From NCBI GenBank assembly GCA_045656225.1, contig JAZOQU010000022.1:4732-68731 (forward strand): a stretch of DNA of 64,000 nucleotides, given 5' to 3'. The translations under genes were made by a program, and so were the position numbers. Shown here piece by piece: positions 43,062-58,850 of the stretch. Each line of letters opens with the position of its first letter. Position 1 is the first letter of the stretch. The stretch comes from Kiritimatiellia bacterium (GTDB lineage Bacteria; Verrucomicrobiota; Kiritimatiellia; RFP12; UBA1067). The notes beneath the pieces are model-generated. The model did no database searches. It was given only the letters and a program-made list of their open reading frames with translations, and was not told the DNA's origin.

Positions 43062-43424
43062 TTATTGGCCGCGTTCTGCCCGATGAACAATCTCGCGCCA
43101 CAAGTTCTGAACCCATTGATCGTACTTACGAACAGGAATATTACTTTCCACTGGCAATATGGAAAAACTCTTTTCTCCATTCATGACAACATCAACCACG
43201 CAACGATTTTTTCGCTGAATAATCGTCAACCGATATGTCTTTTCGTCTGTTTTCTTGGGCAGCCATCTTCGCCTTTGCGCCGCAGAAACTATTGCTCGTT
43301 CCAACGAATATCCTTCCGCAACAAAAACTGGCACATCAACCACAGGCTCACCCACCCCAATCGCAACCGATTTGCATCCGGAAACTGCTGCGAGAAGACC
43401 TAATATTATAATAATCTTTTTCAT
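43062..43424 (-). CDS. Small lipoprotein, unknown function
   Basis: Lipobox MKKIIIILGLLAAVSGC; the gene is lower in GC than its left flank. Confidence 0.5.
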   Translation of the reverse strand: MKKIIIILGLLAAVSGCKSVAIGVGEPVVDVPVFVAEGYSLERAIVSAAQRRRWLPKKTDEKTYRLTIIQRKNRCVVDVVMNGEKSFSILPVESNIPVRKYDQWVQNLWREIVHRAERGQ

Positions 43425-43457
43425 TGTATTAAATTCCTTTCTTTATATCACAAATCG

Positions 43458-43560
43458 CCTTATAGGAAAAATAAACTATGTTATCATACCACAACACGCC
43501 TTATAAGGTCAATTAGAAGCCCATCTTTATAACTGTAGCCACTAAGAATCCAAAATCATA
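43458..43560. repeat. Direct repeat copy 1 (~100 bp) carrying two CCTTATAAGG-type palindromes
   Basis: Aligns with 44499..44600. The core ccttataaggNcaattagaaNcccatcNttataaNtgtagccactaagaatccaaaatcata is near-identical in both copies. Confidence 0.8.
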
Positions 43561-43628
43561 ATGCCCCAATATCATGTCTGCATTGGATGCAGCCCCTTAC
43601 CAGCGCTTTTATATAAATGCGGTGGTCG

Positions 43629-44108
43629 CTACAGCCTCTCAACTGCAGCGAAAACTTTTGCCGCGAGAGAGTCTGATAGCTGCCACATACCGACATTGCC
43701 GCGGCATGGGATGGGTTCGGGTAAGCGCCTTACGTTCGAGAGGTCCCACCAGAACCGATAGCCTTCATCCCATTTCTGCTTTGGCGTTGGCTTGGACTTA
43801 TAGACACCATCCTCCAACACTAGATTTAAGCCATCCCGCGCCTTGTAGTCACAAACTGCAATAATCTTACCAGGCCAATCCTTAACCTCGCGCCAAGAAG
43901 GAAGCTTCTCAAAATCCTCGTCCGAAAGCTCATGCGCAGCCATCGCCATAAACATCCCATATTGCTCCTTGCAAAACGACTTCGAACACGAAATCGCCAC
44001 CCGCCCTTCCCTCGGCTCTGGCATCATACTGCGATTCTCCGTCCGCTTGATTCCGTAAAGAATCATAATCGCATACGATCCAGTACAAGTAAAGGCGTTC
44101 ATAATCAA
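43629..44108 (-). CDS. ASCH-domain protein
   Basis: ASCH signature GxKxxExR present as GIKRTENR. About 70% amino-acid identity to the N-terminal half of the ASCH–RadC fusion at 49492..50319. Confidence 0.6.
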   Translation of the reverse strand: MIMNAFTCTGSYAIMILYGIKRTENRSMMPEPREGRVAISCSKSFCKEQYGMFMAMAAHELSDEDFEKLPSWREVKDWPGKIIAVCDYKARDGLNLVLEDGVYKSKPTPKQKWDEGYRFWWDLSNVRRLPEPIPCRGNVGMWQLSDSLAAKVFAAVERL

Positions 44109-44171
44109 GTATTCACAAAAACTGATTTAACATCTTTTAAAACACGTTCCGCTGTTCCGATTGCAAATCGA

Positions 44172-44492
44172 TCAGCAAGCTGCATAAGATCCCTTCTTAG
44201 TTTTACGCCCCGCCCTCTGCCGTTTCTTTTCAATATCTCTTCTCTTAAACAGTGATTCATCTATCTCAGGCGGTGCAATAGCCATAAGCCAATCCACCTT
44301 ACCGAGAGTACGGCAGTATGCAAGAAGCGAAAGAGTTGAAGAATTTTCCCCTAACTCAAGATTACGAATAGCCTTAAGCGACACGCCGCTCCTATCAGCA
44401 GCAGTTTGCTGTGATATATTAGCGGCAAGTCGCTGCGCCCTCAAGTTTTCACCCAGAACCTTGAGCATTTCTTCTTTTGTTCGATATATCAT
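44172..44492 (-). CDS. XRE-family helix-turn-helix transcriptional regulator
   Basis: Classic HTH_XRE: LRAQRLAANISQQTAADRSGVSLKAIRNLELGE. Immediately upstream of the ASCH gene. Confidence 0.6.
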   Translation of the reverse strand: MIYRTKEEMLKVLGENLRAQRLAANISQQTAADRSGVSLKAIRNLELGENSSTLSLLAYCRTLGKVDWLMAIAPPEIDESLFKRRDIEKKRQRAGRKTKKGSYAAC

Positions 44493-44498
44493 AAATCA

Positions 44499-44600
44499 TC
44501 TTATAAGGAAAATAAACAGCAATATTATAGCATAAGATTCCTTATAAGGCAATTAGAAACCCATCCTTATAATTGTAGCCACTAAGAATCCAAAATCATA
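44499..44600. repeat. Direct repeat copy 2 (~100 bp) carrying two CCTTATAAGG-type palindromes
   Basis: See copy 1. It lies directly upstream of the HTH gene start. Confidence 0.8.
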
Positions 44601-44848
44601 CAACTGCCCTGCGAGAGTTTTAAATTTCAACAAATCAAGCGTCGTTGTCCATAGTTTGCTTTCCTATGGCTTTAGCATAGACGACCTGGATGGATAGACG
44701 CTGAAATACTGTCTTGATTGCACATTAGAATTTTCCGCACAAGATTCTCATTTTCTCAAACGAAAGAAGATAACTCAAGATATTTGCCAGAAACACGAGA
44801 TTTTTGATTGCCTGCGCGGAGCTCGGCCCTAAGAAAGCACAAGATAAA

Positions 44849-44881
44849 AGTTGCAAAGTTGGTCAGACCTACTTTGCAACT
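44849..44881. repeat. 33-bp near-perfect palindrome AGTTGCAAAGT-tGGTCaGACCt-ACTTTGCAACT
   Basis: Inverted repeat read directly, with one mismatch pair. Homologous to the 45-bp palindrome at 45147..45191. Confidence 0.8.
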
Positions 44882-45146
44882 ATTATTACATCTAAGACTC
44901 CCATCACAACTTTGCCAATAGTGCAGCTGTACAATCTTACGATACGCTGTCCTTCGTGGAGAAGGCGAACTTGCGAATTGCGATTTTCGCTTTTTTGTGT
45001 TACACTACTCACCGTCTTAGGGAATTGGCCTTGCGACTTGTCGTATTGAGTCATCAAGCCCTGAGACATTTCTTTTGTTTCGGTTACATCGCAACAAACC
45101 TGACCATTTTCATTGTTTCACATTTAATCCGAGAATACAAATACGC

Positions 45147-45191
45147 ACCAAAAGTTGCAAAGTAGGTCTGACCTACTTTGCAACTTTTGGT
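45147..45191. repeat. 45-bp perfect palindrome (accaaaagttgcaaagtaggtc-t-gacctactttgcaacttttggt)
   Basis: 22-bp arms around a single central T, followed by TTATTT. Candidate bidirectional terminator, protein-binding site or MITE-like end. Confidence 0.8.
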
Positions 45192-45526
45192 TATTTCTTC
45201 GCTCCTCCGCATTTTGCGAAATCCGGCAAGCAAGGGATTGCGATAATCATTTACAAACAGGAAATTATCGGGATTTGCGCGACCGAAAAGCCCTCAGAGA
45301 TTGTGGATTGAGAAAGTTCGCAATCATACAATTACAATATCTTCTCAGCATTCGAAACAGAACTCTACCGCCGCATTTTGAGAAATGCGGCGGTAACTAC
45401 AGACAGCAGAATGCCGCGTAAATATGCCGCTGGACACAGTTTGCAAACTATGGATTAGCAGACGCTATTTAATAAGTCGGTGATGGTGGTGTCGAATGGC
45501 ATTGTAGCATACAATCATCTTTTAGT

Positions 45527-47533
45527 TCAATTGCCAAGCAGTCGCGAAAGCAGCGATCTTGACTTAAAGTCAATATCAAAGAAGTCTTTCGCCGCTGCCA
45601 AATCCATGATGACACTATCACGAGAACGTTTTGCACAAAGATTCTCCGGCAGCTCCTTCATCAATCGGTCAGCGTCCCAGTTTTCGCCAGCAACATATCG
45701 AAGTGTATTCATCCTCTTGTTTACTTCGAACGCATTGGGATTTGCTTGCCACGCCGTTTTAATTGTCTGTATGGCATATTTACCAGTGACCTTCTCACTG
45801 AAATAATCCTCCAAAGACAACTCCCGTATGAATGTAGGACAATTTGACAAATTTTCACTAAATATGGAACGCAAGATTACCGACGAAGCCTTAAGTATAT
45901 CTGGCGACTCTGATTCGGGGTTATCATCCTTGAGCGCCTCCATCAATTCAAGAACAGAATCAAGCATCCTACGAAGATACTCACGATAAAGCGCCGTTCC
46001 GATTTTTTGCTGAACAGATCGGACGATATTGCTTTTCATTACCTCCGTATTTGTAAGTCCAGCCTGAACGCGACAAATTACAGTTCGCCTTATAACTTCC
46101 TGTGCGACAGCCTTCACATCCTCATTTGCACTAATTACTACAGCGGGATAATTGAGAAGATGCTCAAGCGAACCGAAATCATCATTCTTAATCGTCTCAA
46201 TTGCGTGTTGATTAAACCTTGTATTAGTCAAATCGTCAACAATGATGGGCGCCCCTTGCACAGTACGTCGAAGCCCATCAATTGTCGTACGAGTAAACTC
46301 AGGCGCACTTATTTTCACCTTTTGTCCAATCATCATCTTAAGTAAGGTTTCCAGAAATGACGTCTTTCCAGCCTTAGACTGTCCATAGATGAGACCAAAC
46401 ACAGGATACGGAAGGGTTTTCTGATCATAACGCAAAGCTGTATCACGCATTACAGCCATAAAAGGCGAACAGAAGAACCAGTTCGCGAACTCGTAGTACC
46501 TATATTGCATCCCTTCGCAGTCACCATGGAATCTCTCAAAACCATTCATGTAACGAATAAAAAGTTCAACGTCAGATTTAATTTCATCTTGAGTAGGATG
46601 CAAATCAAGCGTAACACCATTAAGCAGCACACAACTCTTTTCAACATCAACGGCGAGCTGCGGATATTCACTCCTCAGTTCCTTCTCATGTTCGCTTTCC
46701 TTCACTTGCTGCCGTTTTACCTTCTGTATGACATCAGGCGTTACAAGAACTTTTCCTTTCCGCTTTTCTTCCTTTGAAATAGATATTGACGGCGCAATGC
46801 GTTTTGCCAAATTGCGAGTATCAAGAATAAAATTAACGTCCTCTTCCACATCCTTGACTGGCTCAATATAAATCGCCTTCTCAACCCTCGCAGTTTCAGC
46901 GATAGGTAATGCGTCTACATTCTCCGTGCTATCCGATATTTCAATAGCCTTTTTCGTTATAGTATCTACACTATCCTGTTTCAAATCCTCATAAGCCTCT
47001 TCAAACCGTTCGTATGCCTCCTGAGAATCAATATAACATATAATCTCTCTCTGTCGCCCGCCAAAAGCATTGAATGACATGTTTGCTGAACCGAATACAA
47101 CCCGAGCCCGTCCATCTTCCGCCTTGAGCAAATACAACTTTTCATGCGATAACCTTCTGCGCGCGACAAAAAGCCGCACATCACCACGCTCAACACGCGC
47201 AATCATCTTCTCCTTTGATGTAGAATCCGTCTTACGAATACGCTCCATTAACTTCGCCTGATAAGCCATTATCTCTTGAAGAGTATACGACATAACCTCT
47301 TCACATCCGAAAATAATTTCAGCGTCTTTGAACAAGTCAAGCAGTTGATATACAAAACCTATCCCCGATGAAAACGTAATTGCTTTGATTGAATTGAAAC
47401 CTGAAAAAAGTTCTTGCCACGTAATACTTTCTGAATAAACATAGTCCATCTTAACTACATCTATCTTGCTCATTCCACCATTTGACATCCCGTCAGATGA
47501 TGAAAATAAATCATCGCCAAAGTCTTTTGCCAT
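45527..47533 (-). CDS. Fused PLD-family nuclease and SF3-like P-loop NTPase (668 aa)
   Basis: N-terminal single HKD-type motif HEKLYLLKAEDGRARVVFGSANMS (HxK...D...GSxN). C-terminal Walker A GQSKAGKTS, Walker B IIVDDL, and a downstream VVISANE that resembles SF3-helicase motif C. Confidence 0.55.
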   Translation of the reverse strand: MAKDFGDDLFSSSDGMSNGGMSKIDVVKMDYVYSESITWQELFSGFNSIKAITFSSGIGFVYQLLDLFKDAEIIFGCEEVMSYTLQEIMAYQAKLMERIRKTDSTSKEKMIARVERGDVRLFVARRRLSHEKLYLLKAEDGRARVVFGSANMSFNAFGGRQREIICYIDSQEAYERFEEAYEDLKQDSVDTITKKAIEISDSTENVDALPIAETARVEKAIYIEPVKDVEEDVNFILDTRNLAKRIAPSISISKEEKRKGKVLVTPDVIQKVKRQQVKESEHEKELRSEYPQLAVDVEKSCVLLNGVTLDLHPTQDEIKSDVELFIRYMNGFERFHGDCEGMQYRYYEFANWFFCSPFMAVMRDTALRYDQKTLPYPVFGLIYGQSKAGKTSFLETLLKMMIGQKVKISAPEFTRTTIDGLRRTVQGAPIIVDDLTNTRFNQHAIETIKNDDFGSLEHLLNYPAVVISANEDVKAVAQEVIRRTVICRVQAGLTNTEVMKSNIVRSVQQKIGTALYREYLRRMLDSVLELMEALKDDNPESESPDILKASSVILRSIFSENLSNCPTFIRELSLEDYFSEKVTGKYAIQTIKTAWQANPNAFEVNKRMNTLRYVAGENWDADRLMKELPENLCAKRSRDSVIMDLAAAKDFFDIDFKSRSLLSRLLGN

Positions 47534-47662
47534 ACATCCTCCTTAAATTAAACTTTTGATGAAAATGTTGTAATCTCCATTTCTATTAGCTCAAACCGAG
47601 AAAGTAGGTCAGACATAACTTCTTAATTAAAAGTGTTAACATAAGCATCTTTACCTAATATC

Positions 47663-49465
47663 TCACAAAGCCTCATAATATTTCCTGATTTTTTCAGCCA
47701 TCATTTTACGACGCTTCGGCAAGAAGCACGTCTCAAAATCCTCAACACCCATCGTTATCACATCCTCTGGAACGCAATTCATTTCCATTGTCTGCTTCAC
47801 CATATCAATATCCGTCATTGATCCTATGACCGGACTCTTCGTTTCGCATTGCTTGAAAACACATCCGAAATACTCAGCGGGCGACTTTTTGCCGATTGCG
47901 ATGTTTATCGGAGTTTCTAAATAGGTGAAATTCGCCACCTGATTATACTGCGTAAACCGAAGCCCATTGTTCTTGAGGAATTCCTTCGGGAAAATATGGT
48001 GTACATCTCCATTATCAATAAGATTAGCAACCGCTGTTACCGAAAACAGGGACTGATCTCTAAAAAATACCTGTGCCGCCTTAAATACATTTAACGCAGG
48101 GCATTTAGCCGCCGACGTTTCCAGCTGTTGCACAATATTTACCGTCCAGAATGATTCCCCTAATTCTGCCGCTTCAATATCTGCAAGACACTTACGCACG
48201 CCTTTCTCTGCGATTGCGCGTAAATCTCGATCCATCTGAGATTCTGGAGACCCAGAATAACGCCCTGTCAATGTACTTAAGACGAACCACCTTCTGACAA
48301 ACGATTTAATTTCTGTAGCACCAACTTCTTTTGTCTCATTCAAGAGAAGATGCAATGTATAAGCGAAATCAAGCGACATTTGTGAGCGTAAGAGCTTAGA
48401 GGAAATAAACCCAGCCGACTCAATAGCCTCCACAAACTGCTTAAAATGATATTCCTTCACGAAGTTGTGAACACCAGACTCTAACTTGGCAAAGCTCTCC
48501 TGCATAATTTCGTCTTTAAAAGTACGATCCTTGAAATCACGTCCTGAAAGCAAACTGACAAGATCCTTCAATCTGCCGCGTCCGAACTTATGCATCATTG
48601 CCACTCGGAGCATATCACTATACTCAGGATCATAAATATCCTTGCGGTCATCCTTGAGCCATTTCATTTCGCCAGCATACGGCGTCGCCATAAACTCTAC
48701 ATCTTTCTCGACACTTGAATAGAACGCAGGATCAACCGCCAAATGACAAAAATAATCAATCGCCTTGCGCAAATCATTGCCTCCATAACGATTATCTGCC
48801 GCAATCTTCGACATTGCAAAATCAGCCTCATTAAGAATCTTACCTTGCGAATTTATGCGTACGAAAATCTCGGTAACCTCATCAATTCCAATATCCTGAC
48901 TAAGCTGAATTACGCCAATCTGACGCTGTTCAATGCGTAGCAACTCTCGAATCTTGGCATTTATCGCCTTGCGCTCCACGCCTAGGTTATCAGCAACATA
49001 CTGTTCTATAAATTCATAATCATCAAAATCCTTCTTAAAGAGAACGGAGATATCTGCAATCCAGCGCTTATCCTTTATATGAACCGGTGTCTGCACCTCA
49101 AAAGAAGGCTCTTCATCCGCCGCCCACGGATTAAATGCTATCTTGATCTGCTTAGATGAATAATCATCCCGCAAAACAGATCGCCCATCAATCGCCGTCA
49201 TAATAGCTGTGACGCGCTGCTGACCATCAATAAGAATCTTCTTCCCAAGCGACAACGATCCGTCCTTAAGCTTAACATCAGGATTTTGCCAGACAATAAT
49301 ATACCCTGCCGGATATCCACGATAAAGCGAATCTATCAAATCGCGGACCTGCGCACCGCTCCAAACAAACGGGCGCTGAATCTCCGGAATAGCAATCTCT
49401 CCATTCCTTACAAACCCAAGAATGTTCTCAATTGTCTTCTGCTCTATCGAATATTTCTCTGCCAT
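47663..49465 (-). CDS. GmrSD-family type IV restriction endonuclease (DUF262 plus DUF1524)
   Basis: N-terminal DUF262/ParB-like motif IPEIQRPFVWSGAQVRDLIDSLYRGYP. C-terminal DUF1524 His-Me finger motif DNGDVHHIFPKEF. 600 aa. Confidence 0.7.
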   Translation of the reverse strand: MAEKYSIEQKTIENILGFVRNGEIAIPEIQRPFVWSGAQVRDLIDSLYRGYPAGYIIVWQNPDVKLKDGSLSLGKKILIDGQQRVTAIMTAIDGRSVLRDDYSSKQIKIAFNPWAADEEPSFEVQTPVHIKDKRWIADISVLFKKDFDDYEFIEQYVADNLGVERKAINAKIRELLRIEQRQIGVIQLSQDIGIDEVTEIFVRINSQGKILNEADFAMSKIAADNRYGGNDLRKAIDYFCHLAVDPAFYSSVEKDVEFMATPYAGEMKWLKDDRKDIYDPEYSDMLRVAMMHKFGRGRLKDLVSLLSGRDFKDRTFKDEIMQESFAKLESGVHNFVKEYHFKQFVEAIESAGFISSKLLRSQMSLDFAYTLHLLLNETKEVGATEIKSFVRRWFVLSTLTGRYSGSPESQMDRDLRAIAEKGVRKCLADIEAAELGESFWTVNIVQQLETSAAKCPALNVFKAAQVFFRDQSLFSVTAVANLIDNGDVHHIFPKEFLKNNGLRFTQYNQVANFTYLETPINIAIGKKSPAEYFGCVFKQCETKSPVIGSMTDIDMVKQTMEMNCVPEDVITMGVEDFETCFLPKRRKMMAEKIRKYYEAL

Positions 49466-49491
49466 ATAAATTCTCCTTATTGCTTACGGTT

Positions 49492-50319: not shown

Positions 50320-50606
50320 AACTTACTTTGTGAGACTGCCGCGAATAATGGCAAATCAGTTTCTGAATCAACAAGTTCTATATTCTCGTTGTTCTCTCCA
50401 TAGAACTCAAATTTATGCTCGCGGCGAGAAATGCAAACGCCGCGTTTTTTCAATTCAACTGCAAACCACCGCCGTAATGACTGCGGCGTTGCTGCGAATT
50501 CATCAATAGAATCGAAATCTTCCCAACCGACATTTCCGTCAGCATCAGAAAATGGCTTGATTTTTAAAAGTTCATAGGTCATATTGACAGGACTTTTCAT
50601 TGACAT
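50316..50606 (-). CDS. Hypothetical protein (96 aa), first gene of the ASCH–JAB/GmrSD operon
   Basis: ATGA overlap with the downstream ASCH–RadC gene. No recognisable motif. Confidence 0.4.
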   Translation of the reverse strand: MSMKSPVNMTYELLKIKPFSDADGNVGWEDFDSIDEFAATPQSLRRWFAVELKKRGVCISRREHKFEFYGENNENIELVDSETDLPLFAAVSQSKL

Positions 50607-50780
50607 TCTGTTTTGATGCTATTCATCTCAGTTGTATAATTATCCTTACATAATTGGTATTCACAACGGAAGAAATCACTAGCACCATCATCATTCGTAT
50701 TCTTCATGAAGTGATAATTTTCCCCATGTCGTAAGCAAGATTAATCAACAGTTCTGTCGCCTTCACATAACAACACTTCA

Positions 50781-51779: not shown

Positions 51780-53848
51780 TTCTCGACCTCCTCCTTAAAC
51801 AATTCGGGAATAACATTTTTGATAGAGTCAAGTATCGCAACAAGCACATCAACGACAATAGCATTTCCTGCTTGCTGATACATTGGAGTGTCCGGAACAA
51901 CAATTTTAAAAGTATCGCTAAATCCCATCAGCCTGAGACATTCTCTCGGCGCTAATTTTCTAATTCTACCTTCCCTAGTTATGTAATTATCAACACCAGC
52001 TCTGTGCATTTTATGCATAGAGGTTAACAAAGGTCTTGCTATCTCCAAGTCAGTTTTGGGTCGAGAATAAAAGGTTTTAGTTCCTGTAGAAAGAACGTAC
52101 TTTCTCACCTTTTCAGAGAGAAAATATTTTTCAAGTTCAGGCATTCCAAAGCTCTTGGCAGTCTCTTCATCAACGAAAACAAAATCTCCGTGCCAATTAA
52201 ATTGCTGATTCTTCTTTTGACATAGCTGAACCTTGCCGTCAACTTGTGTATACCGCTTTGTAAGATTTCCCTCATCAAGAACAAATCGAACACCTTTTTC
52301 TGGAAGATAGTATTTACCTGGAACGACATCAAGTAAATAATCTTGCATCGTCGTTTTTAGTTTCTTCGGTGCTGGAAATTTGAAGCTTCCACCGATTTTT
52401 AAATCCTTACGAAACCCAACAACAAAAACACGTTCCCTATTTTGTGGTATTCCATAATCCTTAGAATTTAACACTTGATAATGCCAGTCATAACCTAAAT
52501 CTGTAAAAATCTTTGAAATAGTAGCCCATGTTTTTCCACCATCATTACTCAACAGTGCACGAACATTTTCATATATGAAACATTTTGGCTTAATTTCTGA
52601 TACTAAACGAGCATACTCATAAAACAATGTGCCACGAGTATCAGATAATCCCATCTGCTTGCCTACAAGACTAAACGATTGGCATGGGCTTCCTCCAACA
52701 AAGAGATCGACTTCATTTTTGTATGGCGCCCCCTCAAGAAATGTAACATTCCAATGAAATCTATCATCTGTAACCGGGTAATTCGCCATATATGATTGGC
52801 GAACCTTATTTCGAGGAAGCATTGGTCGATAAAGCATATCGACTAACTTCTTTCTTTCTTGCCAATCCTTTTCCGATTCCCAACCAACTCTAAATTTGTA
52901 AAATCCAATTGCTTCATGAAGCATTTGAACGCGGTCTTTTAACTCACGCTCAGGTCGCTTACTCATAGCTGGCGCACCGTCTAACAATGCCTGAATATTA
53001 TTGCGCTGATTTACAATCAACTCATAGGCCTGTTGAAGGCTTTCGCTGTTTGGCTTTAACTCGTCAATGCGCTCGCATAATTCCTTAAACGCCGCCACAC
53101 ATTCAGACCATTCTTTAGCACCACAAACAAAAGGAGTTTGGTCGCCATTATCACAAGCAAAAACAATTTCATGAGCGACATGAGTACGCAACAATGCTTG
53201 TTCAATAGCTCCTATCCCGCTAAAAACTGTCGCTAGTCTTAATTTTTCGCCTTTGGCTGATAACGCTTGTGCAACAACAGGCATTAAGCCATCGAAGAAA
53301 TCCAACTGTACTGGATTAAACGTTGTAGCTGAATGCCATTTCTTGAAATATGGTTTTAGTTTGTCAAAGATGTACGGCATTGACTTTCCGCCAGTTTTGG
53401 GGTAGGGCTTAGCGTAAAATGCCGCGTCAATCTTTACATTAGGACAACGCTGTGACGAAACAAAAACGTCTGCCGCGGAATCAGAAAGTGTCGCGGCAAA
53501 AGAAACCTTCTCTCCAAGTTCATATAGCGCGTATGCTGAACCATGCGCTTTATCTGCCGCGGCAACTTTATAACCATTTTCTTTGAGCCACGCGGCATCT
53601 ACAACTTCACGAAACTTTGCTTCGTAAGCTAAAGGAGTAAATCCATCAGCGATTAGAACGATTCGTGATATATTTTCATGAAACGCAACTTTCCCACAAG
53701 GCGGCAATGGAAGATTATAGAACTTCTTCTCCTTAATCCATTCCGCATTTTCCTTGCGAAAAGTCCCAACAAGAACAGCTGTATTAGCTTTATTTTCCCT
53801 TTTCTTTCCCATCTTCAATTCACTTTCTTTATCGCTCATATCATCCAC
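51776..53848 (-). CDS. DNA (cytosine-5)-methyltransferase with a ~200-aa N-terminal extension and a ~100-aa insertion between motifs I and IV
   Basis: Motif I ATVFSGIGA, IV GGSPCQSFS, VI ENVRALL, VIII QNRERVF, IX RKLAPRECLRLMGF, X GNAIVV. The likely true start is MSDKESELK at 53839, with AGGTGG 5 nt upstream. Confidence 0.85.
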   Translation of the reverse strand: MDDMSDKESELKMGKKRENKANTAVLVGTFRKENAEWIKEKKFYNLPLPPCGKVAFHENISRIVLIADGFTPLAYEAKFREVVDAAWLKENGYKVAAADKAHGSAYALYELGEKVSFAATLSDSAADVFVSSQRCPNVKIDAAFYAKPYPKTGGKSMPYIFDKLKPYFKKWHSATTFNPVQLDFFDGLMPVVAQALSAKGEKLRLATVFSGIGAIEQALLRTHVAHEIVFACDNGDQTPFVCGAKEWSECVAAFKELCERIDELKPNSESLQQAYELIVNQRNNIQALLDGAPAMSKRPERELKDRVQMLHEAIGFYKFRVGWESEKDWQERKKLVDMLYRPMLPRNKVRQSYMANYPVTDDRFHWNVTFLEGAPYKNEVDLFVGGSPCQSFSLVGKQMGLSDTRGTLFYEYARLVSEIKPKCFIYENVRALLSNDGGKTWATISKIFTDLGYDWHYQVLNSKDYGIPQNRERVFVVGFRKDLKIGGSFKFPAPKKLKTTMQDYLLDVVPGKYYLPEKGVRFVLDEGNLTKRYTQVDGKVQLCQKKNQQFNWHGDFVFVDEETAKSFGMPELEKYFLSEKVRKYVLSTGTKTFYSRPKTDLEIARPLLTSMHKMHRAGVDNYITREGRIRKLAPRECLRLMGFSDTFKIVVPDTPMYQQAGNAIVVDVLVAILDSIKNVIPELFKEEVEK
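53802..53841. repeat. 40-bp perfect direct repeat (copy 1) covering the methyltransferase start codon
   Basis: tttctttcccatcttcaattcactttctttatcgctcata is identical to 54965..55004 and encodes MSDKESELKMGKK on the minus strand. Confidence 0.85.
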
Positions 53849-53866
53849 CTATCATGCGCCCTGCCA

Positions 53867-55003
53867 TCAGTCGCATTTCCCTTTCTCAGAAAGACGATTT
53901 CGTGCAGCCTCTATCGCCAAACGGAACTTCGCCTCCAGCACCTTCTTCGGCGGCAATTCCGTCATATATGACGCGACCCTTATATTGCTACGCCCCAACT
54001 CCAACAATTCAACATGTTCCTCGTTCTTCCCAGCGCACAAAATTAATCCGATTGGCTTGTTTTCACCTTTGCACATCTCATTCTTCTCAAGCCATTTCAA
54101 ATACAACTCCATCTGACCTTTGTACTCAGCTTTAAAAGTATCTATTTTGAGGTCGATAGCCACAAGCCTGCGAAGACGCCTGTGGAAAAACAATAAATCA
54201 AGATAATAATCTTCGTTGTCCACGCTGATACGCTTCTGTTCTGCAAGAAACGCCATATCACCACCAAGCTCAAGTATAGCGTTCCTCATGTCTGCAACAA
54301 GAGCCTTCTCAAGTTCCTTCTCCGAAAAATTGCCGCGCAGCCCAAGAAAATCTAAAACATACGGATCTCGAAAGGCAAGGTCGGCAGACATCTTGCCTTC
54401 TTCACGCAGTGCTTCCAAATCCTTTTTTATAACTGCCTTAGGCTTTTTTGCTATTGCTGTACGTTCATACATCATCGAAGCGATGCGTCCTTGCAATGTA
54501 CGCGTCCCCCAATGTTCCGTTGCGCACATTTCAAGGTAGAACTGCCTCTTAAGAGAATCTGAAATGTAAGAGAGCGTCTTGATGTGCGTCCACGACAATT
54601 GTCTCCGCAATGCGGAGAGAATCTCATCCTCGCCGAAAGTCTCCGCGGCGCGGAGACAATGCCTCAACGTCTTCTCATCCCATCCACCCCCATGAAAAAG
54701 CATAAGACGAGATGCCAACCCCTTGACAACCTTCTTACCATACTCAGCGCGACCGCAACCGAGAATTTCTCTATTAATGCAGTTGCCAACATTCCAATTC
54801 AATTTGGTCAACTCAGTATTAACTCCAACAGCCACGCGCTCCCTTGCCGCTGTTATCAATGATGATATTTCGTTGAAGAGCCTGGTAATCGCATCATCTA
54901 CAAAATTGACACCTGATGATGATTGTCCTAAAACATCATTTTTCTCTTTAACTTCAGAACTCTTTTTCTTTCCCATCTTCAATTCACTTTCTTTATCGCT
55001 CAT
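53867..55003 (-). CDS. YhcG/DUF1016-family PDDEXK nuclease-like protein
   Basis: YhcG-like N-terminal motifs (LSWTHIKTL) and a C-terminal PDDEXK-like core (VAIDLKIDTFKAEYKGQMELYLKWL). Start set to MSDKESELK (55003); the track's 55048 start crosses the upstream HTH gene. Confidence 0.6.
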   Translation of the reverse strand: MSDKESELKMGKKKSSEVKEKNDVLGQSSSGVNFVDDAITRLFNEISSLITAARERVAVGVNTELTKLNWNVGNCINREILGCGRAEYGKKVVKGLASRLMLFHGGGWDEKTLRHCLRAAETFGEDEILSALRRQLSWTHIKTLSYISDSLKRQFYLEMCATEHWGTRTLQGRIASMMYERTAIAKKPKAVIKKDLEALREEGKMSADLAFRDPYVLDFLGLRGNFSEKELEKALVADMRNAILELGGDMAFLAEQKRISVDNEDYYLDLLFFHRRLRRLVAIDLKIDTFKAEYKGQMELYLKWLEKNEMCKGENKPIGLILCAGKNEEHVELLELGRSNIRVASYMTELPPKKVLEAKFRLAIEAARNRLSEKGKCD

Positions 55004-55004
55004 A
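54965..55004. repeat. 40-bp perfect direct repeat (copy 2) covering the YhcG-like start codon
   Basis: See copy 1. Confidence 0.85.
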
Positions 55005-55013
55005 GTCTTCGCC

Positions 55014-55217
55014 TCATTCATGCACAACGTCCATAATATCGCCAACATTGCAATTTAGCACCTTGCATATTCTCGTCATCAGATCAAACGAGATATACTC
55101 ATCTTTAGATAACTTTGCAAAGGTAGACGAAGACGCGCCGACAGCTATTCGCAGATCTGTCCGCGTCATTTCTTTATCTATAAGAAGCTTCCACAATTTC
55201 TTATACGAAACACCCAT
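55014..55217 (-). CDS. Small HTH (XRE-like) DNA-binding protein, candidate R–M controller (C-protein-like)
   Basis: 67 aa from MGVSYKKLWKLLIDKEMTRTDLRIAVGASSSTFAKLSK. AGGAG RBS 7 nt upstream. Extended -10 element TGgTATAAT about 35 bp upstream. Confidence 0.55.
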   Translation of the reverse strand: MGVSYKKLWKLLIDKEMTRTDLRIAVGASSSTFAKLSKDEYISFDLMTRICKVLNCNVGDIMDVVHE

Positions 55218-55344
55218 ACCATCTCCTAATTGACGTGTAATATTATACCAAATCACATCCTAAACATACAAATATAACCTTTGACTTTTCAAAGGTGGAC
55301 AGATATGAAAAAACTGCATTTTATACCTTATTTCATACCCAAAC

Positions 55345-55400
55345 AGTGCGCATCTCTCACTTGAAAAGTGCGCACTTCTCGACCAAGAGGTGCACACTTC
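55345..55400. promoter_or_regulatory. Three direct repeats (a)GTGCGCAcTTC phased at 22 bp
   Basis: agtgcgcatctc at 55345, agtgcgcacttc at 55367, ggtgcacacttc at 55389. They lie between small ORF copy 1 and the HTH promoter. Confidence 0.6.
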
Positions 55401-55457
55401 TTTTCTTGGAGCTTACGACACCCCATCAACCGCTTTGCGCAATCGCCGCTTGTCGGA

Positions 55458-55619
55458 TTACGCTTTCAGCAGCGCAAGAATACCGCATAAAATGATTATC
55501 CCGAGAAACCACACAACACACTCGAGGCACGACTGCGTGCCGTCGCATGAATCATCCGGTCCGGAAGGCATCCTTAAGCCTCTCTCAAACTCCTCTTTAA
55601 ATTTTTCCCATCTAGTCAT
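55458..55619 (-). CDS. Small tail-anchored Cys-rich membrane protein (53 aa), copy 1; below the ORF-track size cutoff
   Basis: MTRWEKFKEEFERGLRMPSGPDDSCDGTQSCLECVVWFLGIIILCGILALLKA, with RBS AAGGTGA 4 nt upstream. Lies inside a ~180-bp repeat (55444..55627). Confidence 0.45.
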   Translation of the reverse strand: MTRWEKFKEEFERGLRMPSGPDDSCDGTQSCLECVVWFLGIIILCGILALLKA

Positions 55620-55758
55620 AATCACCTTTTATCATAAAATATAAACCACACCTACCCCAATCCTGTTAATCCTGTCAAAAAAACTTTATCCACAAATCTG
55701 CACATATCGACACAAATCAATTTGTGGAAATTTGTGACGATTTGTGGACTCCAACTCC

Positions 55759-56160
55759 CTACCCGAACAACTTCTCAACCAGCTCTCTATCCGCAGGACA
55801 AAAATCAATATCGCGCATTTGATCTACCGTTACCCAGCGAATCTCCTGATGTTCCAATGCTTGCGGCACAGCCCCATTTTTCGGATTACATTCGATCAAT
55901 GTAAGACGAATTGTCTTTTCGGGATATTCATGCACAACAGAATCGATAATTCGCTCGTTTTCAATCTCTAGCGCCAGCTCTTCAAGACACTCTCGCTTAA
56001 GCGCCTTTTCAGAAGTTTCGCCAGGCTCGATCTTCCCACCCATAAACTCCCATAATCCACCCTGCGACTTATGCGCCGGCCGCTGCCCGATAAGATACTT
56101 ATCACCATCTTTGATGATGGCTCCAACAACCTCTATCACATTATCATTATACATTTTCAA
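55759..56160 (-). CDS. NUDIX hydrolase (MutT-like)
   Basis: Nudix box GGKIEPGETSEKALKRECLEELAL. Confidence 0.8.
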   Translation of the reverse strand: MKMYNDNVIEVVGAIIKDGDKYLIGQRPAHKSQGGLWEFMGGKIEPGETSEKALKRECLEELALEIENERIIDSVVHEYPEKTIRLTLIECNPKNGAVPQALEHQEIRWVTVDQMRDIDFCPADRELVEKLFG

Positions 56161-56182
56161 TTATCGCAAAACTTTTTTGTTA

Positions 56183-56917
56183 TTATAACGCATCTATCGC
56201 ATCCCGAGCAGTCGCATTTCTTCGCGCATCAATTCGCTTAGCTTTTTCAGCATCCAACTCAGCCTGCTCTTTTTTTGCCTGCGCATATCCCAAAGAATCA
56301 ACTAGAGAAACAGAACTATTACCATAACTACCAAGAACAGAAATCCTCCTTATTCTATCTCGGTACGTTCCATCCAATTCACACCTAAAAACCATATTAG
56401 ATTTCTTTACCATTTCCGCATCGAATTTCTTCTCAATTGCTTTCTTGGCTAAAATCGGCAATTCGTTGACTTCTGAAGATTTCGGCAACGGAAATGCGTC
56501 TTGCATCGCTTTATCCTTGATCAAAAACTTACTAGTTATAGCGCACGCCACAATCTTATAGACAAGATGCGTTTTCGGGGTTACACACACGTAATAAACG
56601 TTATAGCCGAGAAATTGTTTTTCAGGAATAAAATAAATCTTCGATTCCGCTGACAAATCAGATGGAACATCCTCTATTTTTTCCGCAATTTTCTTACCGA
56701 AAAGTCCGTTAAATTGATTATACAACCGATTCGATATTAATGAATTTTTAGACTGAGAAGCTCTTTGTCCACCCCTATTTTCTGATATACGCTGGCTTCT
56801 TCTTGTCAGTTTTGGGCTATCCATTGTATAAGAACTAGCCCTTACATCAAAGCAACATATGGACATAGAAGTTATGATAGTTGATAAGATCAATGTTCTT
56901 ATATAATCAACCTTCAT
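56183..56917 (-). CDS. Hypothetical secreted protein (244 aa), AT-rich gene
   Basis: Signal-peptide-like N-terminus. Upstream promoter with TGgTATAAT extended -10 at about 57075. Confidence 0.45.
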   Translation of the reverse strand: MKVDYIRTLILSTIITSMSICCFDVRASSYTMDSPKLTRRSQRISENRGGQRASQSKNSLISNRLYNQFNGLFGKKIAEKIEDVPSDLSAESKIYFIPEKQFLGYNVYYVCVTPKTHLVYKIVACAITSKFLIKDKAMQDAFPLPKSSEVNELPILAKKAIEKKFDAEMVKKSNMVFRCELDGTYRDRIRRISVLGSYGNSSVSLVDSLGYAQAKKEQAELDAEKAKRIDARRNATARDAIDAL

Positions 56918-57126
56918 TTTTATTCTAACCTTTTTTATTATTGCGCTATTTCTGCCGATTATGATAATTTTCCAGATTTCCGTATTAGGAGCGTTAATGC
57001 GCTTTTTAGTTCTCTACGCGAGCTCCTTTCCACGCGGCAACAAGGCATTTCACCGCCTCGTCTATATGCCAATATTATACCAAATCCCATACCCCAAAAA
57101 AACACTTTGATAATAGCTATTCTCTC

Positions 57127-57148
57127 CTTCACATATTGCAATATGTGA
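57127..57148. promoter_or_regulatory. 22-bp perfect palindrome ttcacatattgcaatatgtgaa upstream of the 56183..56917 promoter
   Basis: Read directly. About 40–60 bp upstream of the extended -10 element. Confidence 0.6.
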
Positions 57149-57292
57149 AATAAACCTCGATGAACAGCCCCTCGGCTATTCTGAGACAGGATCAACAGGA
57201 TTGGAATTGCAGTATTTTCAACCACGAAATACACGAAAACTAACGGGGACAATCCCCTCGGCAATTACCCAGAATAATGGTTTATTTTACTT

Positions 57293-58821: not shown

Positions 58822-58850
58822 AATCACCATCGCTCCACACTTGCAGAAAT

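What the first reader, a model, noticed from the sequence alone, without database searches (positions are those of the whole stretch)
43062..57290. A ~14-kb AT-shifted, single-orientation defence island between pflB and an MBL hydrolase gene, with no integrase, transposase or tRNA
From about 43060 the sequence becomes visibly AT-richer, with long A/T-rich coding runs at 45500–47600 and 50400–53900, while the flanks are about 55–60% GC. Every gene is on the minus strand. The content is dominated by nuclease, methyltransferase, HTH and PUA-like-reader genes: HTH–ASCH, PLD–NTPase, GmrSD, ASCH–JAB, HNH_2, Dcm, YhcG and a C-protein-like HTH. Neither boundary has a recombinase or tRNA; there are only repeat families (CCTTATAAGG repeats on the left, a ~180-bp sORF repeat on the right). 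That combination is typical of a horizontally acquired defence island but gives no clue to how it moved.
Basis: partly seen in the sequence, partly recalled or inferred. Interest (0 to 1): 0.8.

Follow-up and report, generated by a model that had tools for sequence, protein, structure and literature searches.

The report
Mosaic anti-phage defence island, Kiritimatiellia
A 14-kb AT-rich stretch in a gut/rumen Kiritimatiellia genome is a real but fairly ordinary patchwork of restriction and other anti-phage genes, and related strains carry different genes between the same conserved neighbours, including an uncharacterised ASCH-RadC gene that follows many different cytosine-methylating restriction systems.

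Summary
Window 43062-57290 has 42.3% GC against 50.7% (left) and 48.4% (right), and its tetranucleotide usage lies 6-9 SD from the rest of the window. There is no tRNA and no recombinase nearby. Nearly all domain calls were verified: Xre HTH, ASCH, PLD-P-loop, GmrSD, ASCH-RadC/JAB, HNH_2, Dcm, YhcG, HTH_26 and NUDIX. Two details were overstated: the flanks are 48-56% GC, not 55-60%, and almost the whole 64-kb window is minus-strand coded.

It is a mosaic defence island. The closest relative found (L103; Dcm 95% aa) has HTH_26-Dcm-HNH_2 and the left-hand HTH at 88-94% nt identity. It has no YhcG, and it carries Hachiman (HamAB) where the window has hyp96/ASCH-RadC/GmrSD/PLD-NTPase. In the window YhcG is an insertion after Dcm codon 13, flanked by a perfect 41-nt duplication.

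ASCH-RadC is conserved (71-90% aa). In 31 of 36 related loci it lies just downstream of a Dcm and a variable restriction endonuclease. Those Dcm proteins share a roughly 200-aa N-terminal domain with weak PUA-like fold matches.

The likely route of change is recombination at conserved frame genes, not self-mobility. Verdict: new member of a known kind, moderate interest.

The parts
43062..43424 (-). 120-aa predicted lipoprotein (lipo120), the leftmost island gene. It is driven by a copy of the HTH106 promoter/operator.
   Evidence: LPAM_1 lipobox, E 1.2e-4. GC 0.44. Promoter repeat upstream. No homologue in any fetched locus.
43439..43560 (-). Copy B of the roughly 125-nt promoter/operator repeat. 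It carries -35/-10 boxes and CCTTATAAGG / CCTATAAGG palindromes and lies ahead of lipo120.
   Evidence: the repeat finder D4/D5. Alignment A4. Promoter-like site 43512-43483.
43629..44108 (-). Stand-alone ASCH-domain protein (159 aa). It is a paralogue of the N-terminal half of ASCH-RadC (73% aa) and probably a truncated copy of that gene.
   Evidence: Alignment A1. Profile A6 against PDB: ASC-1 ASCH E 3e-20, EOLA1 5e-11. Pfam ASCH in 14 of 30 distant relatives. GC 0.51, GC3 0.59.
44172..44492 (-). Xre-type HTH regulator (106 aa), probably autoregulated through the CCTTATAAGG palindromes.
   Evidence: HTH_3, E 2.7e-7. 99% aa identical in L103. Operator-like palindromes overlap its -35 box and RBS region. 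That it binds these palindromes is inferred.
44480..44600 (-). Copy A of the promoter/operator repeat, ahead of HTH106.
   Evidence: Homology to L103 starts at 44557.
44601..45526 (.). 0.9-kb non-coding stretch with two 43-45-nt perfect palindromes (44844-44886, 45147-45191) and terminator-like hairpins. Pieces recur, in a different order, downstream of HTH106 in L103.
   Evidence: No ORF above noise. No Rfam match. Repeats I1/I4/I8. Terminator-like hits. L103 matches.
45527..47533 (-). 668-aa PLD (NgoFVII-like) nuclease domain fused to a P-loop NTPase; a candidate single-gene defence nuclease.
   Evidence: RE_NgoFVII E 3e-9, PLDc_2 E 8e-6. HxK and GSxN motifs and Walker A GQSKAGKT read from the sequence. 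74% aa homologue in L011-13, with further family members in L022. Weak PADLOC ZacB/mad8 hits. No PDB sequence relative.
47663..49465 (-). GmrSD-family (DUF262) Type IV restriction enzyme, 600 aa.
   Evidence: GmrSD_N E 7e-30. PADLOC HEC-05 E 3e-29. N-terminal match to 7p9k, a DUF262-domain protein, E 4e-8. The C-terminal DVHHIFP...N...N His-Me-like motif was read by eye only. The same family follows ASCH-RadC in L015, L029 and L049.
49492..50319 (-). ASCH-RadC/JAB fusion (275 aa), the conserved 'frame' gene of this island family.
   Evidence: RadC E 1.6e-27. Intact HNHPSGNPTPSRAD JAMM motif. ASCH by profile. 1589 homologues, the top 120 at 71-90% identity. dN/dS 0.09-0.29. GC 0.56 against 0.42 for the island.
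50316..50606 (-). 96-aa protein of unknown function, overlapping the ASCH-RadC start by 4 nt.
   Evidence: No family hit. 90% nt homologue directly upstream of ASCH-RadC in L047.
50781..51779 (-). HNH_2 restriction endonuclease (332 aa), overlapping the end of Dcm by 4 nt.
   Evidence: HNH_2 E 1.5e-10. PADLOC HNH 2e-22 and REase_II 8e-21. The Dcm-HNH_2 pair is conserved in at least 8 loci.
51776..53839 (-). C5 cytosine methyltransferase (687 aa from the MSDKESELK start). Its roughly 200-aa N-terminal extension (53234-53839) has a possible PUA-like fold.
53800..53840 (-). 41-nt perfect repeat, copy 1: the base before the ATG plus the first 13 codons of Dcm.
   Evidence: Repeat D8. Alignments A3 and A8.
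53867..55003 (-). YhcG/DUF1016 PD-(D/E)xK nuclease (PADLOC PDC-S02). Relative to L103/L105 it is a cassette inserted after codon 13 of Dcm, and it borrows Dcm's first 13 codons.
   Evidence: YhcG_C E 3e-45, DUF1016_N E 6e-35. PDC-S02 E 5e-114. Absent between HTH_26 and Dcm in L103 and L105. Junction alignment A8.
54964..55004 (-). 41-nt perfect repeat, copy 2, at the start of YhcG.
55014..55256 (-). HTH_26 small regulator (C-protein-like), directly upstream of the R-M operon.
   Evidence: HTH_26 E 7e-18. 92% aa in L103/L105, where it sits 8 nt before Dcm. No PADLOC control-protein hit.
55345..55398 (.). Three GTGCGCAC-like palindromes upstream of HTH_26; a putative operator (C-box-like).
   Evidence: Repeat I2. 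Sequence. Lies partly inside the segment shared with L103, which ends at 55296. Function is inferred.
55461..55619 (-). 53-aa membrane sORF, copy 1. Copy 2 is at 58663-58821, ahead of the MBL gene.
   Evidence: 94% nt and 89% aa identity between the copies. Absent next to MBL in L001/L002.
55759..56160 (-). NUDIX hydrolase (133 aa), a defence-island-associated family.
   Evidence: NUDIX_4 E 1e-23. PADLOC PDC-S07 E 2e-43. 75% aa homologues next to related islands in L030 and L087.
56183..56917 (-). 244-aa AT-rich (GC 0.38) protein with an N-terminal signal-like segment and no known function; the rightmost island gene.
   Evidence: No family hit. Composition. Homology to relatives' MBL locus stops at 57291.

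Best explanation
Window 42.9-57.3 kb is a mosaic, non-autonomous anti-phage defence island in a gut/rumen Kiritimatiellia chromosome.

Contents, read along the minus strand:
- A NUDIX hydrolase (PDC-S07 family) and a secreted protein of unknown function.
- A small HTH_26 regulator that heads an operon of YhcG nuclease, a C5-cytosine methyltransferase and its HNH_2 restriction endonuclease (a Type II m5C R-M system).
- A 96-aa protein and the ASCH-RadC/JAB protein.
- A GmrSD Type IV enzyme against modified DNA.
- A PLD-P-loop nuclease/NTPase.
- An Xre regulator with a truncated ASCH copy and a lipoprotein under a duplicated, palindrome-bearing promoter.

How it defends (inferred from family knowledge). 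The R-M pair cuts unmethylated incoming DNA. GmrSD cuts DNA that escapes by hypermodification. The other nucleases add further layers.

How it changes (partly shown). The island has no recombinase of its own. Individual modules are replaced or inserted between conserved 'frame' sequences. These are the regulator-Dcm-REase block, the PUA-like N-terminal domain of Dcm, the ASCH-RadC gene and the HTH106 module. The most likely mechanism is host homologous or illegitimate recombination with DNA from related bacteria. One such event, the YhcG insertion with a 41-nt duplication, is visible directly.

ASCH-RadC is most likely an accessory of cytosine-methylation-linked restriction systems. Its biochemical role is not known.
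For: Shown:
- Composition shift.
- Defence-family assignments.
- No tRNA or recombinase nearby.
- Relatives' pflBA homology stops at 42896 and MBL homology stops at 57291. pflBA of the three closest relatives (92-93% aa) lies in three other contexts without the island.
- L103/L105 carry HTH_26-Dcm(95% aa)-HNH_2(92%) without YhcG. L103 then has HamA-HamB where the window has hyp96/ASCH-RadC/GmrSD/PLD-NTPase, followed by HTH106 (99% aa).
- Junction alignment: the 41 nt that occur once in L103 flank the 1.16-kb YhcG insertion as two perfect copies in the window.
- L011-13 share Dcm-HNH_2, ASCH-RadC and PLD-NTPase in the same order, with different genes in between and different flanks.
- In 31 of 36 loci with at least 3 kb upstream, a co-oriented Dcm lies within 3.5 kb upstream of ASCH-RadC. 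The endonuclease between them belongs to different families, at least 10 by clustering: HNH_2, MvaI/BcnI, EcoRII, NotI, BsaWI, DUF4928 and unnamed ones.
- Those Dcm proteins share the N-terminal domain, while other Dcm genes in the same loci lack it.
- The window's Dcm is itself mosaic relative to L011/L030/L058: core 82-89% aa, N-domain 24-28% aa.
- Frame parts are GC-richer than the cargo in 28 loci: N-domain 0.52, ASCH-RadC 0.56, Dcm core 0.45, REase 0.44.
- ASCH-RadC nucleotide homology between loci begins and ends at the gene borders, and the gene is under purifying selection.
- The same Dcm-HNH_2 pair occurs alone between MoxR and DUF58 genes in a 60% GC genome, so single modules do travel.

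Inferred:
- The recombination mechanism.
- Regulation by the two HTH proteins.
- The layered-defence logic.
Against: - No empty site in a conspecific genome was found. All relatives are different species or rearranged: L001 shares 34730-39768 at 91% nt but has the MBL gene on the other side. Recent acquisition of the island as a whole is therefore not demonstrated.
- All comparison loci are metagenome contigs or MAGs, many short and not independent of one another.
- No direct repeats mark the outer ends of the island.
- A 41-nt duplication is not what simple homologous recombination predicts. The window may itself be an assembly in which repeats could be collapsed or mis-joined.
- None of the defence activities, the methylation specificity or the regulator-operator pairs has been tested.
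Confidence: 0.8

Rival explanations
1. The region is the decayed cargo end of an integrative (conjugative or mobilisable) element. Its integrase, att sites and transfer genes have been lost or lie elsewhere. RadC-like JAB proteins and small acidic proteins would then be remnants of an anti-restriction or establishment module.
For: - RadC-type JAB domains are typical of conjugative elements and prophage-like islands (PMC5512222, read; PMC3239186).
- The RadC half matches plasmid and phage genes at 34-46% identity.
- Small genes of unknown function often precede ASCH-RadC (8 of 51 loci).
- One related locus (L083) has what reads as an IS110-like transposase next to a truncated ASCH gene. This was judged from the sequence and not confirmed by a family search.
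Against: - No integrase, relaxase, T4SS, replication or phage gene was found in 37-64 kb, or in the annotated contexts of about 15 related loci.
- The ASCH-RadC fusion is absent from 72,556 plasmids, 50,697 phages and IMG/VR.
- No terminal repeats at the island ends.
- ASCH-RadC sits consistently at the 3' end of R-M operons rather than in a transfer or leading-region context.
Confidence: 0.08
2. The region is an old, vertically inherited hypervariable defence locus of this lineage, not a horizontally acquired island. Its AT-richness would reflect the general low GC of defence genes and local diversification.
For: - The same architecture recurs in many Kiritimatiellia-like contigs of 47-61% GC.
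- Frame genes (ASCH-RadC, GC 0.56) have host-like composition.
- Synteny around pflBA and the MBL gene is poor in all relatives, so absence elsewhere is weak evidence.
Against: - The cargo is 8-13 GC points below the flanks, and its tetranucleotide usage is 6-9 SD away.
- Modules at 88-94% nt identity occur in L103 with none of the window's other sequence on the contig.
- The Dcm-HNH_2 pair also sits in an unrelated 60% GC genome.
- ASCH-RadC homologues carry both Kiritimatiellae and Bacteroidales MAG labels.
- This view overlaps with the best explanation (frame resident, cargo exchanged) rather than excluding it.
Confidence: 0.2
3. The region is a prophage or phage-satellite remnant that carries defence genes.
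For: - Xre-type repressors, a lipoprotein possibly under repressor control, and NUDIX and RadC families have PHROG matches.
- phrog_3193 (unknown function) matches the ASCH domain (E 3e-12 to 3e-14).
Against: - No structural, packaging, lysis, integrase or replication gene.
- No IMG/VR contig encodes the ASCH-RadC family.
- No phage record covers more than 47% of it.
Confidence: 0.02

Closest known systems
Defence islands and defence hotspots, that is, variable defence cargo between conserved genes (for example the E. coli immigration control region mcrBC-hsdRMS-mrr; hotspot concepts of Makarova et al. 2011/2013, PMC3632139). Cited from own knowledge.
   Same: - Restriction and other anti-phage genes are clustered, with low GC.
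- Content differs between close relatives, while conserved neighbouring genes stay (L103 against the window).
- There is no dedicated recombinase.
- Methylation-dependent (GmrSD) and methylation-protected (Type II) systems lie side by side.
   Different: - The conserved anchors here are not housekeeping genes. They are parts of the systems themselves: a PUA-like N-domain on Dcm, the ASCH-RadC gene and an Xre regulator.
- The genomic position is not conserved among the relatives available.
C-protein-controlled Type II R-M systems (such as PvuII, AhdI, Esp1396I). Cited from own knowledge.
   Same: - A small HTH protein lies immediately upstream of, and co-oriented with, an overlapping M-R gene pair.
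- Palindromes lie upstream of the HTH gene.
   Different: - The HTH is HTH_26, with no match to PADLOC control-protein models.
- It precedes the methyltransferase (and here YhcG), not the endonuclease.
- Operator binding and delayed-restriction control are untested.
GmrSD/BrxU family Type IV restriction enzymes (7p9k is deposited as a DUF262-domain protein; its identity as BrxU is from own knowledge).
   Same: DUF262 N-terminal domain (E 7e-30), a length of about 600 aa, a PADLOC HEC-05 match and a PDB 7p9k match.
   Different: - Only the N-terminal 50-220 residues match known members.
- The C-terminal nuclease motif was seen by eye only.
- Substrate is unknown.
RadC-type JAB domain fusions described by Iyer/Aravind: HhH-RadC, ArdC-RadC, primase-RadC, DinG-RadC (PMC3239186, PMC5512222).
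   Same: A RadC JAB domain with intact metal-binding motif is fused to a nucleic-acid-binding domain and found in conflict-system neighbourhoods.
   Different: - The partner domain is ASCH (ASC-1/EOLA1-like). Those papers do not list that fusion in the passages read.
- The context is the 3' end of m5C R-M operons, not conjugative polyvalent proteins.
Dcm-Vsr pairs, and eukaryotic reader-writer couples (SRA/UHRF1 with DNMT1). An analogy only, from own knowledge.
   Same: An accessory gene sits directly downstream of m5C methyltransferase systems, and putative modified-base reader folds are attached to the methylation machinery.
   Different: - There is no sequence or fold relation to Vsr.
- No evidence of mismatch repair or hemimethylated-DNA reading.
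- The analogy is a lead, not a finding.

Membership tests
Type II restriction-modification system (m5C) | C5-cytosine methyltransferase with the conserved catalytic motifs | tested here: met
   Pfam DNA_methylase E 2.3e-67, TIGR00675 E 7e-70, PADLOC MTase_II E 4e-76. FSGIG and PCQ motifs read from the sequence.
Type II restriction-modification system (m5C) | Cognate endonuclease gene adjacent and co-transcribed | tested here: met
   HNH_2 protein overlaps the end of Dcm by 4 nt. PADLOC REase_II E 8e-21. The pair is conserved in at least 8 loci, and occurs alone in L106-109.
Type II restriction-modification system (m5C) | Sequence-specific cleavage blocked by the cognate methylation | not testable with these tools
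   Needs biochemistry or methylome data.
C-protein-controlled R-M | Small HTH regulator upstream of, and co-oriented with, the R-M genes | tested here: met
   HTH_26, E 7e-18. It lies 10 nt before YhcG in the window and 8 nt before Dcm in L103/L105.
C-protein-controlled R-M | Homology to known controller proteins, and C-box operators bound by them | tested here: inconclusive
   No PADLOC control-protein hit for HTH_26. Three GTGCGCAC-like palindromes at 55345-55398. Binding was not tested.
GmrSD Type IV restriction enzyme | N-terminal DUF262 (ParB-like NTPase) domain | tested here: met
   GmrSD_N E 7.4e-30. PADLOC HEC-05 2.6e-29. PDB 7p9k E 3.7e-8.
GmrSD Type IV restriction enzyme | C-terminal DUF1524 His-Me finger nuclease | tested here: inconclusive
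   No Pfam hit for the C-terminal half. A DVHHIFPK...N...N motif is visible in the sequence.
ASCH domain (PUA-like superfamily) | Significant profile similarity to ASCH domains over the whole domain | tested here: met
   A direct Pfam scan found nothing, and a shallow profile gave E 0.36. The deep profile A6 gave ASC-1 E 3.3e-20 over about 150 residues, EOLA1 5e-11 and TTHA0113 3e-5. 14 of 30 family members match PF04266.
RadC-type JAB domain | RadC profile match and an intact JAMM motif (E...HxHx7Sx2D) | tested here: met
   PF04002 E 1.6e-27. The HNHPSGNPTPSRAD motif is invariant in alignment A1. The AF2 JAB half has pLDDT 70-88.
YhcG / DUF1016 (PADLOC PDC-S02) | DUF1016_N plus the YhcG_C PD-(D/E)xK domain | tested here: met
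   E 5.7e-35 and 2.8e-45. PDC-S02 E 5e-114.
PLD-family nuclease (NgoFVII/BfiI-like) | PLD domain with the HxK(x)4D...GSxN motif | tested here: met
   RE_NgoFVII E 3.1e-9. SHEKLYLL...GSANMS read from the sequence. Fusion to a P-loop (GQSKAGKT) is by eye, with a weak mad8 hit.
Classical genomic island or integrative element | Integrase or recombinase gene at one end | tested here: not met
   None among the ORFs of 37.4-64 kb or the seven further ORFs tested.
Classical genomic island or integrative element | Insertion at a tRNA/tmRNA gene with flanking direct repeats (att) | tested here: not met
   No tRNA or tmRNA in the window. No repeat pair joins the two island ends.
Prophage or satellite | Phage structural, packaging or replication genes, or relatives in viral collections | tested here: not met
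   PHROGs give only regulators, NUDIX and RadC. IMG/VR scan negative. Phage records match only the JAB half.
Defence island (operational: several defence genes clustered, variable between relatives) | At least three independent defence-family genes within about 15 kb, with different content in close relatives | tested here: met
   R-M II, GmrSD, PDC-S02, PDC-S07 and the PLD nuclease. L103 has Hachiman in place of four window genes.

The most novel reading that the evidence does not exclude
The ASCH-RadC/JAB gene and the roughly 200-aa N-terminal domain (possibly PUA-like) fused to Dcm form the conserved frame of a previously undescribed class of m5C restriction-modification loci in gut and rumen bacteria. 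In this class the methyltransferase core and the endonuclease are exchangeable. ASCH-RadC would be a functional third component. It could, for example, read methylated cytosine and process DNA, or resolve trapped methyltransferase-DNA adducts, or serve as the homology anchor that allows integrase-free exchange of specificities and downstream defence genes.
Probability: 0.3. Interest if true: 0.65.

Novelty: new member of a known kind. Interest (0 to 1): 0.4.

Why it matters
As a defence island it adds little. Such clusters are common, and each main component belongs to a known or candidate family.

Its value lies in three things that the comparison exposed.

1. It is a concrete, base-resolved example of how an island without recombinases changes. 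One 1.16-kb nuclease cassette was inserted into the start of a methyltransferase gene with a 41-nt duplication. A four-gene block was exchanged for Hachiman between the same flanking modules.

2. A strongly conserved ASCH-RadC fusion trails many different m5C R-M systems, at least ten REase families by clustering. RadC-type JAB proteins have had no settled function since 'RadC, a misleading name?', so this gives them a testable context.

3. An unannotated N-terminal domain on the associated methyltransferases may be a modified-base reader.

These are leads for people who study restriction systems, epigenetic readers and rumen phage-host biology.

Tried and rejected
- Exact-sequence look-ups of the window's GmrSD and GH106 proteins found nothing. 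The source genome is not in the collection.
- Synteny through the MBL gene and through pflB gave no empty site. Every relative has different neighbours. L001 shares only 34730-39768 and the MBL gene, in a different order.
- Pfam, NCBIfam and PADLOC did not recognise ASCH directly. A shallow profile gave only E 0.36. The AF2 model of ASCH-RadC, built from 26 close homologues, was poor in the ASCH half (pLDDT 28-62) and was not used for fold search.
- Rfam at a permissive threshold found no RNA family in the island or in its 0.9-kb non-coding stretch. No convincing ORF lies there either.
- I tested whether the palindromes, the 20-nt inverted repeat, CCTTATAAGG or the CACAAAT array recur in related loci. 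None does.
- The 20-nt inverted repeats around NUDIX-hyp244 were considered as transposon ends. There is no target duplication and no transposase, so the idea was dropped.
- An integron-like reading of the repeat-flanked cassettes was considered and dropped. The repeats are promoter or 5'-coding duplications, not attC-like, and there is no IntI.
- The Dcm N-domain has no Pfam or PDB sequence match.
- The PLD-NTPase has no PDB sequence relative.
- The ORF at 56959-57264 (hyp101) looks spurious: odd composition and no family hit.

Full report
**Observation.** The segment 43062-57290 is AT-shifted. Its GC is 0.423, against 0.507 for 1-43061 and 0.484 for 57291-64000. One-kb windows inside it run 0.38-0.49. 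The tetranucleotide distance of 4-kb windows from the rest of the window is 5.8-9.2 SD above background between 43 and 58 kb, and never above 3.2 SD elsewhere. All island genes are on the minus strand. So is nearly every gene of the window, and GC skew is negative throughout, so orientation is not a mark of the island. ARAGORN finds no tRNA or tmRNA in the window. The only Rfam hit is a ZTP riboswitch at 42781-42885, ahead of pflB, which moves the true pflB start to 42760.

**Gene content.** Pfam, PADLOC and NCBIfam give the following, read along the minus strand from right to left:
- a 244-aa protein of unknown function (56183-56917)
- NUDIX (55759-56160; PADLOC PDC-S07, E 2e-43)
- a 53-aa membrane sORF (55461-55619)
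- HTH_26 (55014-55256)
- YhcG/DUF1016 (53867-55003; PDC-S02, E 5e-114)
- Dcm (51776-53839)
- HNH_2 endonuclease (50781-51779; REase_II, E 8e-21; 4-nt overlap with Dcm)
- a 96-aa protein (50316-50606)
- ASCH-RadC/JAB (49492-50319)
- GmrSD (47663-49465; HEC-05; N-terminal match to PDB 7p9k, a DUF262-domain protein)
- a PLD(NgoFVII-like)-P-loop protein (45527-47533)
- 0.9 kb without genes
- an Xre HTH (44172-44492)
- a stand-alone ASCH protein (43629-44108)
- a lipoprotein (43062-43424)

No recombinase, transposase, phage or conjugation domain appears in 37.4-64 kb, or in seven other ORFs tested.

**The ASCH call.** Pfam missed ASCH. The two ASCH-bearing proteins are paralogues (73% aa). A phmmer search of 1.84 billion cluster representatives found 464 related clusters. 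A profile of 30 diverse members matches the ASC-1/TRIP4 ASCH domain over its full length (E 3e-20) and EOLA1 (5e-11). Fourteen of the 30 members match PF04266.

**Repeats.**
- A roughly 125-nt promoter/operator segment with CCTTATAAGG-type palindromes precedes both HTH106 and the lipoprotein gene.
- A 182-nt segment (94% identity) carrying the sORF and its RBS lies both before the MBL gene and after NUDIX.
- A third repeat is more telling. It is 41 nt, 100% identical, and comprises the base before the ATG and the first 13 codons (MSDKESELKMGKK) of both YhcG and Dcm.

**Organism and synteny.** The window comes from a Kiritimatiellia bacterium of animal guts. The best genome hit (L001, a MAG labelled 'MAG: Kiritimatiellia bacterium') shares 34730-39768 at 91% nt and the MBL gene at 81% nt, but in a different order and with neither pflBA nor the island. 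The closest pflB proteins (92-93% aa) lie in three different neighbourhoods, and nucleotide homology covers only 39882-42896. MBL homology ends at 57291. The 14.4 kb between 42897 and 57290 thus has no counterpart at either anchor in relatives. Because these genomes are so rearranged, this is not a clean empty-site demonstration.

**The island family.** The ASCH-RadC protein has 1589 homologues. The top 120 are 71-90% identical, and named sources are Kiritimatiellae and one Bacteroidales MAG. dN/dS is 0.09-0.29. It is absent as a fusion from PLSDB plasmids, INPHARED phages and IMG/VR.

I collected 80 metagenome loci and 11 further contexts. I called ORFs with a simple script and clustered them.
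- In 31 of 36 loci with at least 3 kb upstream, a co-oriented Dcm lies within 3.5 kb upstream of ASCH-RadC.
- The gene between them is a different restriction endonuclease in different loci: HNH_2, MvaI/BcnI, EcoRII, NotI-like, BsaWI-like, DUF4928 and several unnamed families.
- Three of the five exceptions have instead a large ATPase (unannotated here, read as McrB-like) plus a DUF2357/PDDEXK_7 protein upstream.
- Downstream genes are again variable defence genes: GmrSD, GmrSD_N-HNH, DUF4268, AbiH, NERD, EMARD and PLD-NTPase.
- Nucleotide similarity between loci starts at the ASCH-RadC start codon and ends about 10 nt before its stop.

**A second frame element.** Almost all Dcm proteins that precede ASCH-RadC carry a conserved roughly 200-aa N-terminal domain (VLVGTYK...YNYP...ELWLY...AEFVG), whatever endonuclease follows. 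Other Dcm genes in the same loci lack it.
- It has no Pfam or PDB sequence match.
- These scores are modest, so the assignment is suggestive only.
- Across 28 loci the frame parts are GC-richer (N-domain 0.52, ASCH-RadC 0.56) than the exchangeable parts (Dcm core 0.45, REase 0.44).
- The window's own Dcm is mosaic. Its core is 82-89% aa identical to L011/L030/L058, but its N-domain is only 24-28% identical.

**Direct evidence of turnover.** The closest Dcm homologue (P0391, 95% aa) lies on L103-L105.
- There, HTH_26 (92% aa) is followed 8 nt later by Dcm and HNH_2 (92%). There is no YhcG.
- In L103, the R-M pair is followed by a 41-aa ORF, HamA and a ResIII/DEAD helicase (Hachiman), two small ORFs, HTH106 (99% aa), only the last 39 codons of an ASCH gene, and rearranged pieces of the window's non-coding stretch.
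- Matching blocks are window 54964-55296 (92% nt), 50772-53850 (88%) and 44196-44557 (94.5%).
- So between the same two modules the window has 6.2 kb (hyp96, ASCH-RadC, GmrSD, PLD-NTPase, non-coding DNA) and L103 has 3.9 kb (Hachiman).
- The three-way junction alignment shows the following. Upstream of the 41 nt, L103 matches the window's HTH_26/YhcG junction. Downstream of it, L103 matches the window's Dcm. The two window copies of the 41 nt are identical to each other but differ from L103 at four positions.
- YhcG is therefore a 1.16-kb insertion after Dcm codon 13, with duplication of the translation start.
- A 77% identical Dcm-HNH_2 pair sits alone between MoxR and DUF58 genes in a 60% GC genome (L106-109), so the two-gene R-M unit also travels by itself.
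- L011-13 share Dcm-HNH_2, ASCH-RadC and PLD-NTPase with the window in the same order, but with other genes between them and other flanks.
- NUDIX homologues (75% aa) lie next to related islands in L030 and L087, which places NUDIX inside the island.

**Mechanism.** What is shown:
- the gene families
- the operon-like spacing
- the composition shift
- the module replacements
- the duplication-flanked insertion

What is inferred from family knowledge:
- The Type II pair restricts unmethylated DNA.
- GmrSD restricts hypermodified DNA.
- YhcG, the PLD-NTPase and NUDIX add further layers.
- HTH_26 and HTH106 regulate through the nearby palindromes.
- Exchange proceeds by host recombination at the conserved frame sequences after DNA uptake, which would explain the absence of any integrase or transposase.

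The role of ASCH-RadC is open. Published analyses suggest that RadC-type JAB domains process nucleic acids (PMC3239186, PMC5512222) and that ASCH domains may read modified bases (PMC7641849). Its position suggests an accessory of cytosine-methylation-linked restriction. A repair role analogous to Vsr, or removal of trapped methyltransferase-DNA adducts, are speculations.

**Verdict.** The island as such is a new member of a well-known kind. The extra interest lies in the base-level record of integrase-free cassette turnover and in the conserved frame (possibly PUA-like Dcm N-domain plus ASCH-RadC). I did not find that frame described in the papers searched. That literature check was limited.

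Noticed in passing
window 42781-42885 (-): A ZTP (pfl-motif) riboswitch lies directly upstream of pflB. The long GTG-started ORF is therefore spurious at its 5' end, and pflB starts at 42760.
   Followed up: partly
window 39768-42896: pflBA is a 3.1-kb unit with synteny breaks on both sides. L001 homology stops at 39768. Relatives' pflBA homology spans 39882-42896 only. pflBA of relatives at 92-93% aa identity sits in three unrelated neighbourhoods.
   Followed up: partly
window 55657-55676 and 57185-57204: 20-nt inverted repeats (19 of 20 matching; 0 expected by chance), each a tandem of AATCCTGT, bracket NUDIX and the 244-aa gene (1.5 kb). There is no target duplication, no transposase, and no copy in related loci.
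   Followed up: partly
window 55689-55748: A dense array of (C/T)CACAAAT heptamers, three direct and two inverted copies, lies just after the NUDIX stop codon. Function is unknown.
   Followed up: no
window 44844-44886, 45147-45191, 47601-47617: Two 43-45-nt perfect palindromes (AAAAGTTGCAAAGTAGGTC.GACCTACTTTGCAACTTTT) lie 304 nt apart in the 0.9-kb non-coding stretch. A partial third copy lies between GmrSD and the PLD-NTPase gene. In L103 the pieces flanked by them are in a different order.
   Followed up: partly
window 55461-55619 and 58663-58821: Two copies (89% aa) of a 53-aa Cys-rich membrane sORF (MTRWEKFKEEFERGLRMPSGPDDSCDG...) flank the NUDIX-to-MBL segment. Relatives' MBL genes lack it.
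   Followed up: partly
L106-L109 (about 10001-13002): A Dcm-HNH_2 pair (77% and 70% aa to the window's) is inserted alone between MoxR-AAA and DUF58/VWA genes of a 60% GC genome. It is a minimal mobile R-M unit. In L109 the HNH_2 gene is split.
   Followed up: partly
L083 2641-3645 (-): A 334-aa ORF that reads like an IS110-family transposase lies immediately after a truncated ASCH-RadC gene. This was judged from the sequence only, without a family search. It is the only transposase-like gene seen in about 100 related loci.
   Followed up: no
L103 12551-15528; L103 6866-8930: The closest relative of the island carries Hachiman (HamA plus a helicase) and a DUF6339-Dcm pair that the window lacks. 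L014 has the same DUF6339-Dcm combination.
   Followed up: partly
window 13000-18000: A second, weaker tetranucleotide anomaly (+2.3 to +3.2 SD) covers an Acyl_transf_3 gene (12854-13960) and two large proteins with only faint family hits (14090-16174, 16194-18026).
   Followed up: partly
window 9338-11146 (-); L030 1205-2998; L022 894-2687: The window has a papain-like Peptidase_C1 plus lectin-domain gene. In L030 and L022 a roughly 597-aa protein that reads as papain-like by eye (not scanned against Pfam or compared with the window gene) lies directly beside the related defence islands.
   Followed up: no
L059, L070, L071, L073, L087, L090-L092, L047; window 50316-50606: Small genes (70-110 aa) of several unrelated families often sit directly upstream of, or overlap, ASCH(-RadC). 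Several looked rich in acidic residues on reading. No charge calculation or function test was done.
   Followed up: no
PHROGs phrog_3193: The ASCH domain of both window proteins matches a phage protein family of unknown function (E 3e-12 to 3e-14), although no viral contig encodes the ASCH-RadC family itself.
   Followed up: no
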